Shown in pieces: positions 4,431 to 18,167 of a stretch of 64,000 nucleotides of DNA. The DNA is from a virus. A model generated the notes under the pieces. That model worked only from the letters and a program-made list of their open reading frames with translations, did no database searches and was not told the origin of the DNA. Where the stretch lies: IMG/VR virus record IMGVR_UViG_3300029258_003546, positions 1-64,000 of that record. One strand, 5' to 3'. The position numbers and the translations under genes are program-made. Numbering within the stretch: position 1 is the stretch's first letter; each line of letters begins with the position of its first letter.

Positions 4431-4697
4431 CTGCTGGCATTGCGGCGTCGCGGTTGGACGACGCACCGATGTCTGCCCCAATTGCTATCGGCGGCAGTCC
4501 TGTGATCGCTGTGGTCGCTCCCTGGTCTTGGAGGCTGGGAGATGCGTACAGTGCAATAGATTAGTTCCTCTCATTGCCGCCCGCGAGGCGGAGGCGCTGA
4601 AAGGAGCCAACGATGAGACCGGATAGGACGTGCAAGACGTTTGTTGACGCCATCGATGCAGCCAGGAAGGCGGGGGTTTTACCAATGGAGGGTAAGA

Positions 4698-4976
4698 ATG
4701 AAGACAAGTGAAGCAGAAGCAATTGCCTATCTTGATGCGATGCTTGAAGGCAGGCCCATCGAGGGAACATGGAGTATATACGCCGAACGTTGTGAGGCCA
4801 TCAAGCTCGGTCGTCACGCTTTGTGGCGTATGCTGAAGTTGGCCGAGGTGCTGGAGGCGGCGGCAGAGTGGCGGGATACTCATGCGTTGCGAACGCAGCA
4901 TGGCGTAGCGTGCCGCCGCTTGTTCAACGCCATTGACGCCGCCCGCAAGGCGGGAGTGCTGCCGGAGGACGAATGA
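4698..4976 (+). CDS. Hypothetical protein (LAEVLEAA...AIDAAR module)
   Basis: GGAGG RBS; module shared with 4146-4430. Confidence 0.6.
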   Translation: MKTSEAEAIAYLDAMLEGRPIEGTWSIYAERCEAIKLGRHALWRMLKLAEVLEAAAEWRDTHALRTQHGVACRRLFNAIDAARKAGVLPEDE

Positions 4977-5254
4977 GCCAGGAGCCAAGACCAATGATCA
5001 AACGCCCACAGATCAAGAAAGATGCTGAAGACGAGATCCTCTACCGAGTCCAACGCTGGCTGGAAATGCGCCTACGGCAGAAGGGCCGCAGACAGCTAGC
5101 AAGCCGCCATGAACTGCTCGGGATACTGGACGAGGAGATGGCGGAGTTGCGCGAGGCCGTGCATTCCGGGACCCGTGCGGCGATTGACTCGGAATGCCTT
5201 GATGTAGCGGTCGCCGCGATCATGGGGCTACTGAGTCCCGATTGGGGTTGGTAA
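4973..5254 (+). CDS. MazG-like NTP pyrophosphohydrolase
   Basis: EExxELxEA ... ECLDVAV acidic helix pattern. Confidence 0.55.
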   Translation: MSQEPRPMIKRPQIKKDAEDEILYRVQRWLEMRLRQKGRRQLASRHELLGILDEEMAELREAVHSGTRAAIDSECLDVAVAAIMGLLSPDWGW

Positions 5255-5352
5255 TGGCTGAGGAGCCAAACAGTACGGCGATGACTGAACCCGCCTGGAC
5301 ACACGGGACGGATGGGCGAAAACAAGTTGTGTGAGGACTGCGGCTATAATCA

Positions 5353-5544
5353 GCTCCGGCACTACCATTCCCGCCGATGACATGTTACTGCCCCTGAGCG
5401 TGCTGGAGCACAACTTGATTCCAGGCATATATATCACCCTCTATGAGCTGGCCACACGGGCAGAATATGTCTGGATTTCAGTTTGGTGGTTCCAGCGCGC
5501 CAGCAGAAGTGAGTCCGGCCATGATACGCGAGCGCGCTGGAACC
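5353..5544 (+). ncRNA. Orphan stem-loop TIGR-like guide array (3 clear units)
   Basis: Hairpins 5353-5409, 5420-5475 and 5488-5544 each enclose (C/T)CA-N8-GA(G/T)-loop-(CCA/TTA)-N8-GA(G/A); same grammar as the 14952-15381 array. Confidence 0.75.
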
Positions 5545-5851
5545 TCGGTTGAAGCTGTCCGGCAGAAGGCTGGCGTCAACGTCAGCCGGTAACAGAGGCC
5601 GCTGAGTACCTATGCACCAGCCTGGGTTAAATATCGGGCTCTCCCGAGGCGTACACGGTGCCCAGACTGCTGATCAGCCAGCGCAGGCTGTTCAGAGCAT
5701 CTGGCCAGGTCGGAATCTCAGCATCTGTCGGAACAGTCCATGAAAGGCTTTGGTCTCGGATTGTTTCTAGGTGAGACAATGCGAGCTGAGAGGCCTAGCT
5801 CTCAGGTGGCGGATCAAAATTGAATATCTGCCATTCCAAGGTCTTTCGTGT

Positions 5852-5972
5852 TGTAGAGCAGCTTGGGCGCAGAAGGGCTTGGCTTCCACTGCCCGCTGGG
5901 TATGGCGATATGTGGATCGCCATTAGCGGTACGGGTTGCAATTTAAGAGCCTGGAGCTCAAGCTGCTCTACA
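5852..5972 (+). ncRNA. Long-stem structured element upstream of the Ro60 operon
   Basis: tgtagagcagcttgggc pairs with gctcaagctgctctaca, followed by T6; internal hairpin ggcgat/atcgcc. Confidence 0.45.
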
Positions 5973-5993
5973 TTTTTTAGGAAGGAGGAGAAG

Positions 5994-6419
5994 ATGAAGT
6001 TCATCATGGAAGTGGAAGTGGAAGGCGATCTGATAGTACCAGGTCGTACTGATCAGGTAAATACCTGCGTGCTCCTCTCCTTGTTAAGCGAAGCCTGCGG
6101 CGAAATTGAGCGGCGCGCTGATTACCATCGTGGGTATGATTATCACGGCGGGGAGCCGGAGAAGGCCGCTCTCAAGCTCGGCGATAGCGGTGAGCTCGTT
6201 GGGTCTGAGAATCTGTTCCTTGGTGGTTTACAAGGAACCGTCAAGTGGGAAGTGGCCGAGTCTGCCGTTAAAAAAGGAAGGGAGGACGTGAAATGCCAGA
6301 CAAGAAGTTGTTTTCGTCTGCTCCTGGGAAGCATATTCCCAGGACTGATACAGTCAACGAAGCAGGCGGTACTGCGTATGCGTTCACGGTGCGTCACGCG
6401 CTTGCGCAGTTGGCTGTAA
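5994..6419 (+). CDS. Hypothetical protein
   Basis: AGGAGG RBS before ATG 5994; 3' end overlaps the TROVE gene. Confidence 0.5.
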   Translation: MKFIMEVEVEGDLIVPGRTDQVNTCVLLSLLSEACGEIERRADYHRGYDYHGGEPEKAALKLGDSGELVGSENLFLGGLQGTVKWEVAESAVKKGREDVKCQTRSCFRLLLGSIFPGLIQSTKQAVLRMRSRCVTRLRSWL

Positions 6420-7867
6420 CCGGCACTCTGCCGGGTGGTGGTTCGTACTACAAATCAGGTCAAGACGGCCTGAAAGAGGCGCTGAACACGGCCGCAAAGT
6501 GCGAAGCCGGCTGGATTGCCAAGTGCGCGATCTACGCGGCAGAGCATGGCATGAAGGACATGCCTGCTTTGCTACTAGCGTACCTCAGCACCTGTGATAT
6601 CGCACTGACGGAAACCGTGTTTCCAAGGATAGTACATAACAGCCGCATGTTGCGCGGCTTCTGTCAGATTCTCAGATCGGATGTCGTTGGTCGTAAGAGC
6701 TTTGGCCGCGTGCTCAAGCGATGTATCAGACAGTGGCTTGATAGCCGGTCTGAGTATCAGCTGTTTGGTGACGCTGTAGGTGGCAAGTCCGCCGGCGGCG
6801 TGAGCATAGCCGACATCATCAAGATGGTGCATCCCAAGCCGGCGAATGCCGAGCGAGAGGCGCTGTACGGCTATATCATCGGCAAAGAAGGCGTGCCAGA
6901 CGTTGTCAGAGCGTACGAGGCCTTCAAGGCCGGCGAGACAGAGGAGCTGCCAAACGTTCGCTGGGAGCTGTTGACAGCGCTGGATCTCAAGCCTGAGCAC
7001 TGGAAGCTCATAGCTCGTCGTGCCGGTTGGCGGCAAGCTGTCAAGCAGCTCAACACGTTTCATCGTCATCAGGTTCTGGATGATCCTGAAACGGTTGAGA
7101 TTCTTGCTCAAAAGATTGCCGACGAAGAGACGATCAGCAAGCTCAAGCCGTTTCCTCACGAGCTGGTGTCGGCGTACAAGTTCGGCATAACCGCTCCACA
7201 GCCGATTTTGGATGCGCTGCACGCCGCTATGGAATACGTAACTGCGTATGTGAAAGTTCCAGCTGGAAAGGTGTTGCTGGGTGTGGACGTGTCTGGCTCG
7301 ATGGGCTCCCCGGTTACAGGTTGGCGGGGTTCGGCAACCGGTAAGCTTTGTTGCACCGACGTGGCTTGCTTGCTGGCCGCTGTCGTGGCGAAGCGGAATC
7401 CTGACGCACAAGTGATTCCGTTCGACACGAAGCGGTACGATATACGGATCGACCGCATGAATCCGATTTTGACTACTGCTGAGCAGCTTAGTCAGCGGGG
7501 AGGCGGAGGAACGTCAGTTTCGATTCCCCTGGCTTGGGCGTTGGACACTGGTTTCGAGCCAGATCATGTTATTCTGCTCAGTGACAACGAGTCCTGGGCG
7601 GATTCGCGTGGCTCCTCAGCCGCTACCAAAACAATGCGGTGTTTCCGCCAGCTGCAGCAGAAGGTTCCACATCTGCGCATGGTGTGCTTGGATCTTCAGC
7701 CTGACACTAGTACCCAGGCAGCGGACGAAGCTGATGTCCTGAATCTGGGCGGCTGGAGCAATCAGCTCTGGTCTGTAATCGTTGATTTTCTGGAGCACGG
7801 TCAGAATCCGGATGATCCTAATCTCTGGCTTCAGGAGATTGATGCGATTACAATAGACGGACAGTAG
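6293..7867 (+). CDS. rsr: Ro60/Rsr (TROVE + vWA) RNA-binding protein
   Basis: N-terminal 'NEAGG.AY..LAQLAVTG', 'MKDMPALL', 'GRKSFG', 'DIIKMVHPKP'; vWA MIDAS DVSGSM, GGGT, SDNESW. Confidence 0.95.
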   Translation: MPDKKLFSSAPGKHIPRTDTVNEAGGTAYAFTVRHALAQLAVTGTLPGGGSYYKSGQDGLKEALNTAAKCEAGWIAKCAIYAAEHGMKDMPALLLAYLSTCDIALTETVFPRIVHNSRMLRGFCQILRSDVVGRKSFGRVLKRCIRQWLDSRSEYQLFGDAVGGKSAGGVSIADIIKMVHPKPANAEREALYGYIIGKEGVPDVVRAYEAFKAGETEELPNVRWELLTALDLKPEHWKLIARRAGWRQAVKQLNTFHRHQVLDDPETVEILAQKIADEETISKLKPFPHELVSAYKFGITAPQPILDALHAAMEYVTAYVKVPAGKVLLGVDVSGSMGSPVTGWRGSATGKLCCTDVACLLAAVVAKRNPDAQVIPFDTKRYDIRIDRMNPILTTAEQLSQRGGGGTSVSIPLAWALDTGFEPDHVILLSDNESWADSRGSSAATKTMRCFRQLQQKVPHLRMVCLDLQPDTSTQAADEADVLNLGGWSNQLWSVIVDFLEHGQNPDDPNLWLQEIDAITIDGQ

Positions 7868-7871
7868 GCAT

Positions 7872-8011
7872 TGAAGTGGAATGCAGTGTGGTCTACATGC
7901 TTTGTAAGCCCGCGGTTGCCGGTTCGAGTCCGGTCCGCCCTGCCACCAACTCGGGGCGGTAGTTCAATTGGTAGAATACGGAAAGTGACCACGCGCTTCT
8001 TGTCCACTTCA
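7872..8011 (+). ncRNA. YrlA-like Y RNA with a circularly permuted tRNA domain
   Basis: Terminal helix tgaagtgga/tccacttca with GAATGC and CTTGTCC; internal T arm GGTTCGAGTCC, acceptor helix ccgccc/gggcgg and D arm TAGTTCAATTGGTAGAA in permuted order; directly after rsr. Confidence 0.9.
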
Positions 8012-8059
8012 TCGTTTTCAGCCGTAACGAAATGACGCTTGTTCGTTGCGGTCTCATCT

Positions 8060-8129
8060 TGGCAGGAATGCGGCTCGGTTTACATGCTACTTGATACTGC
8101 AACTGACTGAGCAACCACTTGTCCTGCCA
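8060..8129 (+). ncRNA. Y-RNA-like unit 2
   Basis: tggcagga/tcctgcca stem, GAATGC, inner stem, TACAT, ACTTGTCC. Confidence 0.8.
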
Positions 8130-8152
8130 CACGTCATCTCCTCCACGATCGT

Positions 8153-8220
8153 ACTGGAATGCAGCCTGGCGTACATGGCACAACAACGGCCAATACCCAC
8201 CAGGCAACTACTCGTCCAGT
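8153..8220 (+). ncRNA. Y-RNA-like unit 3
   Basis: actgga/tccagt stem, GAATGC, gcctgg/ccaggc, TACAT, ACTCGTCC. Confidence 0.8.
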
Positions 8221-8236
8221 TTGATCGGAAGGCTCT

Positions 8237-8302
8237 GACGGGAATGCTGTGCAGTCTACATGCTGATACCATCGACATGACTGCGCAACCACTTGTCCCG
8301 TC
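8237..8302 (+). ncRNA. Y-RNA-like unit 4
   Basis: gacggga/tcccgtc stem, GAATGC, tgtgcagtc/gactgcgca, TACAT, ACTTGTCC. Confidence 0.8.
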
Positions 8303-8309
8303 TTCATAT

Positions 8310-8379
8310 TGCAACGGAATGCCGGATAGTCTACATGTTTTGAAAACACGAAAAGACTATCCATTACTTGTCCGTTGTA
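8310..8379 (+). ncRNA. Y-RNA-like unit 5
   Basis: tgcaacgga/tccgttgta stem, GAATGC, ggatagtc/gactatcc, TACAT, ACTTGTCC. Confidence 0.8.
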
Positions 8380-8406
8380 GTTGCGCATATTGGCAAAGCA
8401 GTCTGG

Positions 8407-8646
8407 GTGGGCAGCTGTGGCTGCGATTTGACTCATGCTGCGGGTGAAACTGGTGTTAGTAGCTACCCTAGGGATTCGGGAGGCCGCCAACGGCTACGGC
8501 GCGATACGACTTCTCCTAGCTCCTGGATAGTGAGGGCACTTTCAGATTCTATACCCTCCGTTTGGCTAGCAAGCGGAAGCCGGAAGACCGGCGCAGAGAG
8601 GACTCAGAGCCGGGCTAGGTCGCAAGCTCCGGCCAGCCGTCCATCA
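8407..8646 (+). ncRNA. tRNA-shaped RNA family member with long insert
   Basis: gtgggcagctgtggc ... gccgg..ccggc cagccgtcc atca; matches the ends of the 12258, 12547 and 12875 elements. Confidence 0.55.
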
Positions 8647-8780: not shown

Positions 8781-8930
8781 GCCTTTCTATCTTTACAGCT
8801 TGGGACAGGGCCGAGTCCGGATTGTATTTCCAGTTCAGCTCTGGCGTATTCATAGGATGAGATCCTACATGAAGTAAGAACACGCCAGAGCTTTCTTTTC
8901 TGATTCAGGCGTCATTCACAGGGAGAAGGC

Positions 8931-17381: not shown

Positions 17382-17816
17382 ATGAGATGGGTACGAGCAG
17401 TCGAAAAGATCGTGCTGGTGGTGGCTATTATAGCCATCGTGTGTACAGTCGTTTCGTACGCCGGTGATGTGTGCAGGTTGATAGGCCGTAAGGCCTGTCC
17501 CGGCGTAGTAGCCAACACGAGAGCGTTGCGCTACTATACAATGGAAGCCGCCAGGCTCGACCAGGCAGCCGAAAGCGGCACGGCTGTACACATGTCGTCG
17601 CTGGGTCGGTTGACGTACGCTATCGGCTCTGCGCGTTTCGAGCGGCAGCTGGTGAGCTGTGAGGGAGGCTGGACTGGCAGGGATTATCCTGCGGTCAGGC
17701 TGACCTATAGCACGTCTGGGGGTGGACGACTATCCAAGATCTACAAGGCTGACGTTGGCAGGGATTGGATGGTCAGCCTAGAAACAGACGAGGATGCCGA
17801 GCTCGCTAGTCAGTAG
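17382..17816 (+). CDS. Membrane-anchored hypothetical protein
   Basis: N-terminal TM helix; AGGAG RBS. Confidence 0.6.
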   Translation: MRWVRAVEKIVLVVAIIAIVCTVVSYAGDVCRLIGRKACPGVVANTRALRYYTMEAARLDQAAESGTAVHMSSLGRLTYAIGSARFERQLVSCEGGWTGRDYPAVRLTYSTSGGGRLSKIYKADVGRDWMVSLETDEDAELASQ

Positions 17817-17827
17817 CGACTCATCAG

Positions 17828-17861
17828 GTGCCGGCGTCCTGCGTATTCAGGACGCCGGCAC
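17828..17861. terminator. Perfect 14-bp hairpin
   Basis: gtgccggcgtcctg-cgtatt-caggacgccggcac. Confidence 0.55.
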
Positions 17862-18167
17862 TATATTATGGAGATTGATTTGATTATACCCGGTGAAATG
17901 TGGCATAGTAGCCTGTCTGGTTGTACATGCAGCCACGGCTGTGTCACTAGATCCAATACTCTATGTTCATCGTTTTATCCTGACTTGTCAGCAAGTACTC
18001 ATTTGTCGACAAGTCGCTGCCATATGATTGCTTACACCAACTCAGTAGTAGGTGCAGGATTTTATCCGCTCTCGCATAAACAAGCAAGGTCGTACGTATC
18101 ACTGGCAGAGGAAGATTCTGTTTCAGGTTCACACGCATCATCCTGGTCAAGATGAAGGAGGTAGATA

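What the first reader, a model, noticed from the sequence alone, without database searches (positions are those of the whole stretch)
5353..5740. Second, orphan TIGR-like array about 9.5 kb from the Tas-like gene
Seen: three hairpins with the same grammar. 5353-5409: CCA ttcccgcc GAT gacatg TTA ctgcccct GAG. 5420-5475: TCA ccctctat GAG ctgg CCA cacgggca GAA. 5488-5544: perfect 12-bp stem ggttccagcgcg/cgcgctggaacc enclosing CCA gcagaagt GAG tccgg CCA tgatacgc GAG. Weaker possible units with 9-nt spacing follow to about 5740. No Nop gene is adjacent. Inference: guides are encoded in trans at a separate locus just upstream of the Ro60 operon, which independently supports the 8-nt grammar and expands the target repertoire.
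Basis: partly seen in the sequence, partly recalled or inferred. Interest (0 to 1): 0.85.

Follow-up and report, generated by a model that had tools for sequence, protein, structure and literature searches.

The report
Distal TIGR guide-RNA mini-array in phage
Three neighbouring RNA hairpins just upstream of a phage's Ro60 gene are very probably a second small set of two-part guide RNAs for the phage's only TIGR-Tas protein, encoded 9.9 kb away. This is an extra example of a system described in 2025-2026, not a new kind of system.

Summary
Each loop holds two box C - spacer - box D modules, as in published stem-loop tigRNAs.

I trained a box weight matrix only on the six units beside the Tas gene (14952-15382). 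Among all 177 long-stem hairpins of the 80-kb phage record it ranks 5488-5544 first, above every training unit. 5420-5475 is third and 5353-5409 sixth among non-training hairpins. A perfect-box unit with a stem of 12 bp or more never appeared in 160 dinucleotide shuffles.

The protein at 15413-16252 matches solved TasR and TasH structures (E about 1e-11), has no nuclease domain, and is the only Tas in the record.

Not confirmed:
- I found no further units between 5545 and 5740.
- The grammar reads at least as well as CC-N9-GAG, with 9-nt spacers as in relatives' arrays.

The closest relative also scatters arrays, one of them 6.7 kb from its tas gene. This scan has already noted distal TIGR arrays on other DNA, some of them beside Ro60/Y RNA. 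I found no general Ro60-TIGR link in 80 viral Ro60 loci. Use of these guides in trans is inferred, not shown. Verdict: a new member of a known kind, of moderate interest.

The parts
5345..5350 (+). TATAAT hexamer, a possible -10 element 2 nt before the first hairpin. There is no matching -35.
   Evidence: Read. It is one of only 9 TATAAT on the + strand of the 80-kb record. The consensus promoter scan did not call it. Weak.
5353..5409 (+). Unit C1, a degenerate tigRNA-like hairpin. Arms are 5353-5362 and 5400-5409. CCA 5365-5367, GAT 5376-5378, TTA 5385-5387, GAG 5396-5398.
   Evidence: 10-bp stem with 1 G-U. The fold keeps the stem, z -2.1. Weight-matrix score 9.3 bits, sixth among non-training hairpins. 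On box score alone it is at background level.
5420..5475 (+). Unit C2, a tigRNA-like hairpin. Arms are 5420-5430 and 5465-5475. TCA 5434-5436, GAG 5445-5447, CCA 5452-5454, GAA 5463-5465. The piece between the two spacers (GAG-ctgg-CC) is 9 nt.
   Evidence: 11-bp stem with 1 G-U. z -2.4. 13.6 bits, third among non-training hairpins. It passes the relaxed grammar.
5488..5544 (+). Unit C3, a perfect tigRNA-like hairpin. Arms are 5488-5500 and 5532-5544. CCA 5500-5502, GAG 5511-5513, CCA 5519-5521, GAG 5530-5532.
   Evidence: 13-bp perfect stem. z -5.6. 10/10 box positions. Top of 177 hairpins at 19.6 bits. No equivalent in 160 shuffles. It is the only unit in the genome with both halves perfect under TIGRFinder-like seeding.
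5547..5568 (+). A 22-nt degenerate copy (73%) of the C3 5' arm and the start of its spacer A. Possibly the remnant of a fourth unit. It has no closing arm and no boxes.
   Evidence: Family D1. No unit was found here. Chance is not excluded.
5738..5851 (+). Cloverleaf-shaped structured RNA (15-bp closing stem and three hairpins) between the mini-array and Ro60. Of unknown kind; it may lie on the same transcript.
   Evidence: MFE -58.9 kcal/mol, z -8.2. No Rfam match. No tRNA call.
5852..5980 (+). Long hairpin (17-bp outer stem) followed by a U tract. Likely the intrinsic terminator ending the non-coding stretch 5353-5980.
   Evidence: Inverted repeat I1. Terminator-like site 5952-5970 plus T run. 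z -5.9.
14952..15382 (+). Main stem-loop TIGR array of six units, directly upstream of tasA. It was the reference for the grammar.
   Evidence: Hairpins and boxes.
15413..16252 (+). tasA, a nuclease-less Tas (Nop-domain) protein of 279 aa. It is the presumed user of the guides.
   Evidence: phmmer against solved structures: 9mty_A E 8e-12; TasH 21kl_A E 6.7e-11, aligned from residue about 56, so there is no room for a nuclease domain. phrog_4285 E 1.8e-32. Single copy in the record.

Best explanation
Positions 5353-5544 are a small second stem-loop TIGR array: two well-formed units and one degenerate leading unit. It belongs to the same TIGR-TasA system as the six-unit array at 14952-15382.

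Proposed mechanism:
- The stretch is transcribed on the + strand as part of a roughly 630-nt non-coding region that ends at the hairpin plus U tract at 5952-5978.
- Host or phage RNases trim it to single hairpins.
- A dimer of the only Tas protein (15413-16252, no nuclease domain) binds each hairpin through the CC(A) and GAG boxes. The two 9-nt loop segments stay free to pair with the two strands of a DNA site.
- Because the protein has no nuclease, the expected outcome is RNA-guided DNA binding and transcriptional repression, as published for TasA.

Shown here: the hairpins, their boxes, their statistical distinctness, the identity and single-copy state of the Tas gene, and dispersed arrays in a relative. 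Inferred: transcription, processing, binding in trans, repression and the targets.
For: - Coordinates and folds.
- The strict grammar in a hairpin loop is found only at C3 and the first main-array unit in 80 kb.
- By box score, the top four of 177 hairpins are three main-array units plus C3.
- Perfect boxes with a stem of 12 bp or more: 3 real against 0 in 160 shuffles. Score 9 or more with such a stem: 5 real against 0.19 expected.
- The weight matrix from main-array half-sites alone ranks C3 first, C2 third and C1 sixth of about 172 non-training hairpins. The chance that three named hairpins all fall in the top six is about 2e-5.
- Geometry matches the main array: stems 10-13 against 7-15 bp, loops 31-37 against 30-46 nt, and units 10-12 nt apart.
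- The piece between the two spacers is 9-11 nt, as in the published 9-nt loop (bioRxiv 10.64898/2026.09.09.750476, section 7).
- The first base of box C can pair with the last base of box D in 5 of 6 positions in C1-C3, as in the solved Tas complexes (PMC12045711, section 8).
- Tas identity comes from similarity to solved TasR and TasH chains.
- Relatives at up to 46% identity use GAG...CC repeats with 9-nt spacers.
- The closest viral relative has at least six arrays over 8.5 kb. One lies 6.7 kb from tas on the other strand.
- The overlapping ORF 5331-5552 has no homologue among 5.8 billion proteins, a GTG start, no ribosome-binding site and no family hit.
Against: - Only one unit (C3) is significant alone. 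C2 depends on adjacency and C1 is at background on box score.
- I fixed the descriptor CC-N9-GAG after I had seen all units, although the weight matrix was trained on the main array only.
- No covariance model with aligned loops could be built.
- No related genome with the same locus was available, so conservation and spacer turnover are untested.
- No spacer-pair target was found in the 80 kb held, which is 41% of the genome.
- The CUU motif reported at stem bases of other stem-loop systems occurs at only one of three units.
- If TATAAT at 5345-5350 is the promoter, transcription would start inside the C1 stem.
- The codon-usage score of ORF 5331-5552 is ambiguous: 0.063, about the 7th percentile of coding segments and about the 97th of spurious ORFs.
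Confidence: 0.7

Rival explanations
1. Relic array. The hairpins derive from TIGR units, for example by duplication or rearrangement of part of the main array region, but are no longer expressed or used and are decaying.
For: C1 has two off-consensus boxes, and its inner box D/box C pair cannot form (GAT/TTA). A 22-nt degenerate half-copy of C3 follows at 5547-5568. The array is short. No recognisable promoter was called. No targets were found.
Against: C3 is the best-formed unit in the whole genome, better than any unit beside tas. C2 keeps an 11-bp stem. Degenerate end units are normal in live arrays (TIGRFinder text). Relatives keep several dispersed arrays.
Confidence: 0.12
2. Unrelated structured RNA or chance. 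The hairpins are part of a larger non-coding RNA or leader upstream of the Ro60-Y RNA module, or processing or stability hairpins. Their match to the box grammar is a coincidence.
For: The whole stretch 5545-5985 is unusually structured (z -6.6), with a cloverleaf-like element and a terminator. So this is an RNA-rich region where hairpins are expected. C1 and C2 are not significant alone. A hairpin at 8837-8892 fits a relaxed grammar yet folds its 'spacers' into an inner 6-bp helix, which shows that look-alikes occur.
Against: C3 has all ten box positions plus a 13-bp stem, with a genome-wide expectation below about 0.01. It is in the same orientation as the main array. The loops of C1-C3 have almost no internal pairing. 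There is no Rfam family match.
Confidence: 0.1
3. Small protein gene. ORF 5331-5552 (73 aa; 56 aa in the public gene call) is real, and the hairpins are incidental or embedded in coding sequence.
For: A gene caller predicted a 56-aa product here. The codon-usage score is borderline rather than clearly non-coding. Stem-loop tigRNAs embedded in coding sequence have been published, but only within tas itself.
Against: No homologue in 5.8 billion proteins. No Pfam or PHROG hit. GTG start without a Shine-Dalgarno sequence. Three back-to-back 10-13-bp stems inside 190 nt of coding sequence would be odd. This reading would also not exclude guide function.
Confidence: 0.05

Closest known systems
Stem-loop TIGR arrays with nuclease-less TasA (PlTasA from a Peromyscus leucopus gut contig, BlTasA of Bifidobacterium longum; PMC12045711 section 9; bioRxiv 10.64898/2026.09.09.750476)
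   Same: Hairpins with unrelated but palindromic stems. Each loop holds box C - spacer - box D twice, with a short piece between. Units lie in tandem, and sub-arrays can be separated from one another and from tas. The protein is a solo Nop-domain Tas.
   Different: - The boxes here are CC(A) and GAG, not CCA/CGA/CTA/CAA with TG/CG.
- The array has only 2-3 units.
- It lies 9.4 kb from the main array and 9.9 kb from tas, with about ten genes (Ro60, Y RNAs, RNA ligase, RlaP, Thg1-like) in between.
- A CUU motif at the stem base is not regular.
Dual-repeat TIGR arrays of this protein's nearest relatives (e.g. L002 = IMGVR_UViG_3300010362_000046; L012, L017)
   Same: The same box letters (GAG ... 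CC), 9-nt spacers and a 9-nt loop repeat. In L002 several arrays are dispersed around tas, including one 6.7 kb away.
   Different: Relatives have regular 36-nt units with a conserved edge repeat (GAGCGAGCC). Here the edge repeat is replaced by variable 10-13-bp stems.
Orphan or distal CRISPR arrays
   Same: A guide array placed away from the effector gene and served in trans.
   Different: Unrelated proteins and RNA architecture. Here there is no repeat conservation and there are dual short spacers.
Box C/D sRNA/snoRNA genes
   Same: [quoted passage not shown]
   Different: No K-turn/L7Ae or fibrillarin partner. The target is DNA, not RNA methylation sites. The box sequences differ.

Membership tests
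Stem-loop TIGR array (tigRNA units) | Two short spacers per unit, each flanked by a box C and a box D motif | tested here: met
   C3 has both halves perfect. C2 has one variant base per half (TCA; GAA). C1 has variants in both halves (GAT; TTA)..
Stem-loop TIGR array (tigRNA units) | Palindromic flanks that close each spacer pair into a hairpin (published finder: at least 5 bp, or at least 8 bp when a box is variant) | tested here: met
   Contiguous stems of 10, 11 and 13 bp with at most 1 G-U. The stems are kept in the minimum-energy folds.
Stem-loop TIGR array (tigRNA units) | The same box motifs and geometry as the array beside the cognate tas gene | tested here: met
   The weight matrix from main-array half-sites ranks C3 first, C2 third and C1 sixth of non-training hairpins. 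Loop and stem lengths fall within the main-array range.
Stem-loop TIGR array (tigRNA units) | Units repeated in tandem | tested here: met
   Three units lie 10 and 12 nt apart. The array is short, and no further units occur up to 5760.
Stem-loop TIGR array (tigRNA units) | A Tas (Nop-domain) protein encoded with the array | tested here: inconclusive
   A true Tas is in the genome but 9.9 kb away, with none adjacent. Published surveys took up to 10 kb of flank, so this is at the edge of what is called 'associated'.
Stem-loop TIGR array (tigRNA units) | First base of box C pairs with the last base of box D (seen in solved Tas complexes) | tested here: met
   By reading the sequence, this holds in 5 of 6 positions in C1-C3 (C-G four times, U-A once). 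It fails at the inner pair of C1 (U/U).
Stem-loop TIGR array (tigRNA units) | CUU motif at the base of the stem (processing site in the systems tested) | tested here: not met
   CTT occurs only at 5414-5416, before C2. There is none before C1 or C3, and it is irregular in the main array too. It is a clade-dependent feature, not a universal one.
Stem-loop TIGR array (tigRNA units) | Transcribed, processed to single hairpins and bound by Tas; guides DNA binding | not testable with these tools
   Needs small-RNA sequencing, pull-down and binding assays.
Y RNA (YrlA/YrlB) of the neighbouring Ro60 module | Match to the Rfam covariance models, with a Ro-binding helix | tested here: not met
   A permissive Rfam scan of 4500-8500 gives YrlA only at 7874-8012 and a weak YrlB at 8056-8134. 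It finds nothing at 5200-6000.
Intrinsic terminators | Short-loop GC-rich hairpin followed by a U tract | tested here: not met
   The loops are 31-37 nt, and no T run follows C1 or C3. The scan only calls a sub-hairpin inside C2 and the real candidate at 5952-5978.

The most novel reading that the evidence does not exclude
The tigRNA hairpins are the 5' part of a composite non-coding transcript of about 630 nt: three guides, a cloverleaf-like RNA, a long hairpin and a terminator. It sits at the head of the Ro60-Y RNA-RNA-repair block. On this reading the Ro60/Y RNA particle, or the neighbouring RNA-end enzymes, take part in trimming or quality control of stem-loop tigRNAs, whose maturation route is still unknown. 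The block bracketed by the two arrays would then be one functional RNA module.
Probability: 0.06. Interest if true: 0.75.

Novelty: new member of a known kind. Interest (0 to 1): 0.35.

Why it matters
- **Annotation:** TIGR guides can lie well away from their effector gene, here behind ten unrelated genes. Surveys that look only next to tas will under-count guides and targets. Some Tas proteins that appear to lack an array may be served from a distance, which the 2026 TIGRFinder preprint lists as an open question.
- **This phage:** the mini-array adds four to six spacers to a repertoire of about twelve. Its best unit is the natural first choice for a binding test.
- **Architecture:** it adds a case in which a Tas clade that otherwise uses 36-nt dual-repeat arrays has hairpin-framed guides with the same boxes.
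- **Ro60 neighbourhood:** placement next to Ro60/Y RNA recurs in this scan's notes on other phages. My sample of 80 viral Ro60 loci gives no statistical support for a functional link.

Tried and rejected
**1.
- MAFFT cannot align units that share only about ten box letters.
- A single-sequence model skips the loops and scores stems only.
- I replaced it with a stem-plus-box descriptor, a weight matrix trained on the main array, and shuffles.

**2. Comparative evidence for this exact locus.**
- The Ro60 protein found no close relative in viral or metagenome contigs.
- A degenerate DNA pattern of C3 found nothing in viral contigs.
- A neighbouring gene found nothing.
- blastn against cultured phages found nothing in the array.
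- The identical Ro60 protein is on record on 4 contigs, the longest 169 kb.

**3. Target search.** I scanned the 80 kb with all spacer pairs in both orders, gaps of 0-12 and up to 2 mismatches. Only trivial self hits came up, at the level of shuffled spacers. I did not search public genomes for 16-18-nt sites, because hundreds of chance hits are expected.

**4. Shared leader or promoter motifs between the two arrays.** None found.

**5. Further units.**
- 5545-5760: none.
- 8837-8892 fits a relaxed grammar, but its 'spacers' pair with each other.
- 13102-13160 has one good half only.

**6. General Ro60-TIGR association in 80 viral Ro60 loci.**
- No Tas lies within 10 kb of Ro60.
- One true dual-repeat array was found (L090).
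- No stem-loop seeds were found.

**7. Ro60 in the contigs of Tas relatives.** None.

Full report
**Setting**
- The window is the first 64 kb of an 80-kb IMG/VR virus record that CheckV estimates to be 41% complete. It is a large phage.
- Genes near the finding run on the + strand. A 93-aa gene ends at 5254.
- Ro60 (vWA_Ro60, E 4.5e-19) lies at 6293-7867.
- A YrlA-like Y RNA lies at 7874-8012 (57 bits, below Rfam's cut-off of 69), with a weak YrlB-like match at 8056-8134.
- Next come an RNA ligase (8931-9797), an RlaP-type nucleotidyltransferase (9755-11059) and a Thg1-like gene (13349-14152).

**Is the partner protein a Tas?**
- Yes. It matches two sets of solved chains by sequence alone: 9mty_A (an IS110-C-terminal-domain protein, E 8e-12) and the TasH chains 21kl/9w04 (E 6.7e-11).
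- The alignments start at about residue 56 of the 279-aa protein, so there is no room for an HNH or RuvC domain.
- Its Pfam match to Transposase_20 is below threshold. PHROGs files it under phrog_4285 'transposase' (E 1.8e-32).
- It is the only such gene in the 80 kb. It is therefore a TasA-type protein.

**What the literature says a stem-loop TIGR unit is**
- Faure et al. (PMC12045711, section 9) describe arrays of hairpins with variable but palindromic flanks. [quoted passage not shown]
- Xu et al. (bioRxiv 10.64898/2026.09.09.750476) add four points. The stems are not conserved. The piece between the spacers is mostly 9 nt. Arrays sit at flexible positions around or inside tas. TasA acts as an RNA-guided transcriptional repressor.
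- Their finder seeds on box C + N9 + box D intervals paired within 15 nt and flanked by a stem.

**The observation**
- The three hairpins are exactly where stated.
- C1 (5353-5409): 10-bp stem with one G-U. Loop: ta-CCA-N8-GAT-gacatg-TTA-N8-GAG-c.
- C2 (5420-5475): 11-bp stem with one G-U. Loop: ata-TCA-N8-GAG-ctgg-CCA-N8-GAA.
- C3 (5488-5544): perfect 13-bp stem whose last pair is the first C of box C with the last G of box D. Loop: CCA-N8-GAG-tccgg-CCA-N8-GAG.
- The minimum-energy fold of 5300-5860 keeps all three stems and leaves the loops almost unpaired.
- The six units beside tas show the same plan. They lie at 14952-15011, 15034-15099, 15112-15165, 15164-15225, 15230-15291 and 15315-15382.

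**Which grammar?**
- Two main-array units have CCT or CCG where CCA is expected, yet fit CC-N9-GAG perfectly.
- The nearest relatives of the protein (up to 46% identity) carry regular 36-nt dual-repeat arrays. These read GAGCGAGCC-N9-GAG(N)GCACC-N9.
- So in this clade box D is GAG, box C is CC and the spacer is 9 nt. In this phage the spacer usually starts with A.
Nothing here favours 8 over 9.

**More than chance?**
- The strict pattern [CT]CA-N8-GAG-N2-8-[CT]CA-N8-GAG inside the loop of a hairpin of 8 bp or more occurs twice in the whole record on both strands: C3 and the first main-array unit.
- I scored ten box positions in all 177 hairpins with stems of 9 bp or more. The two perfect scores are a main-array unit and C3, and the two scores of nine are main-array units.
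- Random genomic windows of the C3 loop size reach 10/10 with probability 4e-5. That gives about 0.007 expected among 177 hairpins.
- In 160 dinucleotide shuffles of the genome, no locus combined 10/10 with a stem of 12 bp or more (3 real). For a score of 9 or more with such a stem, the shuffles gave 0.19 per genome against 5 real.
- The C2 level (8/10, stem of 11 bp or more) arises about 4 times per shuffled genome, and the C1 level is pure background. Those two units rest on being clean hairpins placed 10-12 nt apart, in phase with C3.
- As a stand-in for the covariance-model test, I trained a weight matrix on the 11 clear half-sites of the main array only. It ranks C3 first of all 177 hairpins at 19.6 bits, above every training unit.
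- C2 scores 13.6 bits and is third among non-training hairpins. C1 scores 9.3 bits and is sixth.
- Three named hairpins all falling in the top six of about 172 has a probability near 2e-5.

**What is not there**
- A core-first scan with relaxed stems finds no unit between 5545 and 5760.
- The only trace is a 22-nt, 73% copy of the C3 5' arm at 5547-5568. It has no boxes and no closing arm.
- A hairpin at 8837-8892 fits NCA-N8-GAN twice. However, its would-be spacer A pairs with the following bases in a 6-bp inner helix, so I do not count it.

**Coding or not?**
- ORF 5331-5552 overlaps all three hairpins. It starts with GTG and has no ribosome-binding site.
- It has no Pfam or PHROG match. Among 5.8 billion proteins its only match is the 56-aa gene call from this same contig.
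- Its codon-usage score is borderline. I read the region as non-coding, with modest confidence.

**Surroundings**
- The stretch 5545-5985 is unusually structured (z -6.6).
- It holds a cloverleaf-shaped element at 5738-5851 (z -8.2) and a long hairpin at 5852-5972 followed by TTTTTT (z -5.9). A strong ribosome-binding site and an ATG at 5994 follow directly.
- A lone TATAAT sits at 5345-5350. It is one of nine on the + strand.
- A single non-coding transcript from about 5353 to 5978 is therefore plausible but unproven.

**Relatives and the distance question**
- No genome with this same locus could be obtained.
- The Tas relatives are still informative. In L002 the edge repeat marks arrays at 9378-9440, 11421-11560, 12020-12101, 12574-12620 and 12789-13049 on the tas strand.
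- L002 also has a nine-repeat array at 17559-17897 on the opposite strand, 6.7 kb from tas, with genes in between.
- Dispersed arrays served by one tas gene are thus a feature of this clade. That supports the reading and lowers its novelty.
- The TIGRFinder survey took up to 10 kb of flank, so an array 9.4-9.9 kb away is at the edge of what has been catalogued.

**Ro60 link?**
- This scan's earlier notes report TIGR arrays beside Ro60/Y RNA genes in other phages. I tested the idea on 80 viral Ro60 loci with 10-kb flanks.
- None has a Tas gene within 10 kb.
- One locus, L090, has a true dual-repeat array of about 2 kb lying 2.8-4.8 kb from Ro60. Its 165-kb record shows no phrog_4285 gene.
- None has stem-loop seeds (low sensitivity).
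- None of five contigs searched has Ro60: four carry Tas relatives and one carries an RlaP relative.
- One in 80 is not evidence of a functional tie. Clustering of small-RNA genes in RNA islands is the simpler reading.

**Targets**
No site in the 80 kb matches any spacer pair in either order, with gaps of 0-12 and up to one mismatch. Two-mismatch hits equal the number seen with shuffled spacers.

**Verdict**
- The finding is a genuine second, small stem-loop TIGR array of the phage's TIGR-TasA system. It has one exemplary unit, one good unit and one degenerate unit.
- Its use in trans follows from there being a single tas gene, but it is untested.
- It is a new member of a known kind. The distal placement is worth recording for annotation practice, but it is not a new mechanism.

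Noticed in passing
window 5738-5851 (+): Cloverleaf-shaped RNA with a 15-bp closing stem and three hairpins, z -8.2. It has no Rfam or tRNA match and lies between the mini-array and Ro60.
   Followed up: partly
window 5852-5980 (+): Long hairpin with a 17-bp outer stem followed by TTTTTT, z -5.9. It is a likely terminator of the non-coding stretch and sits directly before a strong ribosome-binding site and an ATG at 5994.
   Followed up: partly
window 5994-6419 (+): 141-aa ORF with a strong Shine-Dalgarno sequence. It overlaps the Ro60 start (6293) by 126 nt in another frame and has no family match. One of the two start calls may be wrong.
   Followed up: no
window 8837-8892 (+): Perfect 11-bp hairpin just upstream of the RNA ligase gene. 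Its loop fits TCA-N8-GAT-cct-ACA-N8-GAA but folds an inner 6-bp helix. It is a doubtful stray guide unit and more likely an ordinary hairpin.
   Followed up: partly
window 13102-13160 (+): Hairpin with a 10-bp stem (2 G-U) and one good half-site (CCA-N8-GAG) but a poor first half. It scores 10.5 bits with the main-array matrix.
   Followed up: no
L002 17559-17897 (- strand): The closest viral Tas relative has a nine-repeat dual-repeat TIGR array on the opposite strand, 6.7 kb from its tas gene. It also has five arrays around the gene.
   Followed up: yes
L090 14415-16430: A 165-kb viral contig carries a dual-repeat TIGR array of about 2 kb (repeats AGTGTATCA / AGTAAACCA, 36-nt units). The array lies 2.8-4.8 kb downstream of its Ro60 gene. 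No Tas-like gene is found within 10 kb, and no phrog_4285 match is found in the record.
   Followed up: partly
window 7874-8012 and 8056-8134 (+): A YrlA-like RNA (57 bits, below Rfam's cut-off of 69) and a weak YrlB-like match lie directly after Ro60.
   Followed up: no
window 5488-5544: Under strict TIGRFinder-like seeding (identical perfect boxes in both halves), this distal unit is the only seed in the whole 80-kb record. Every unit beside tas has at least one variant box.
   Followed up: yes
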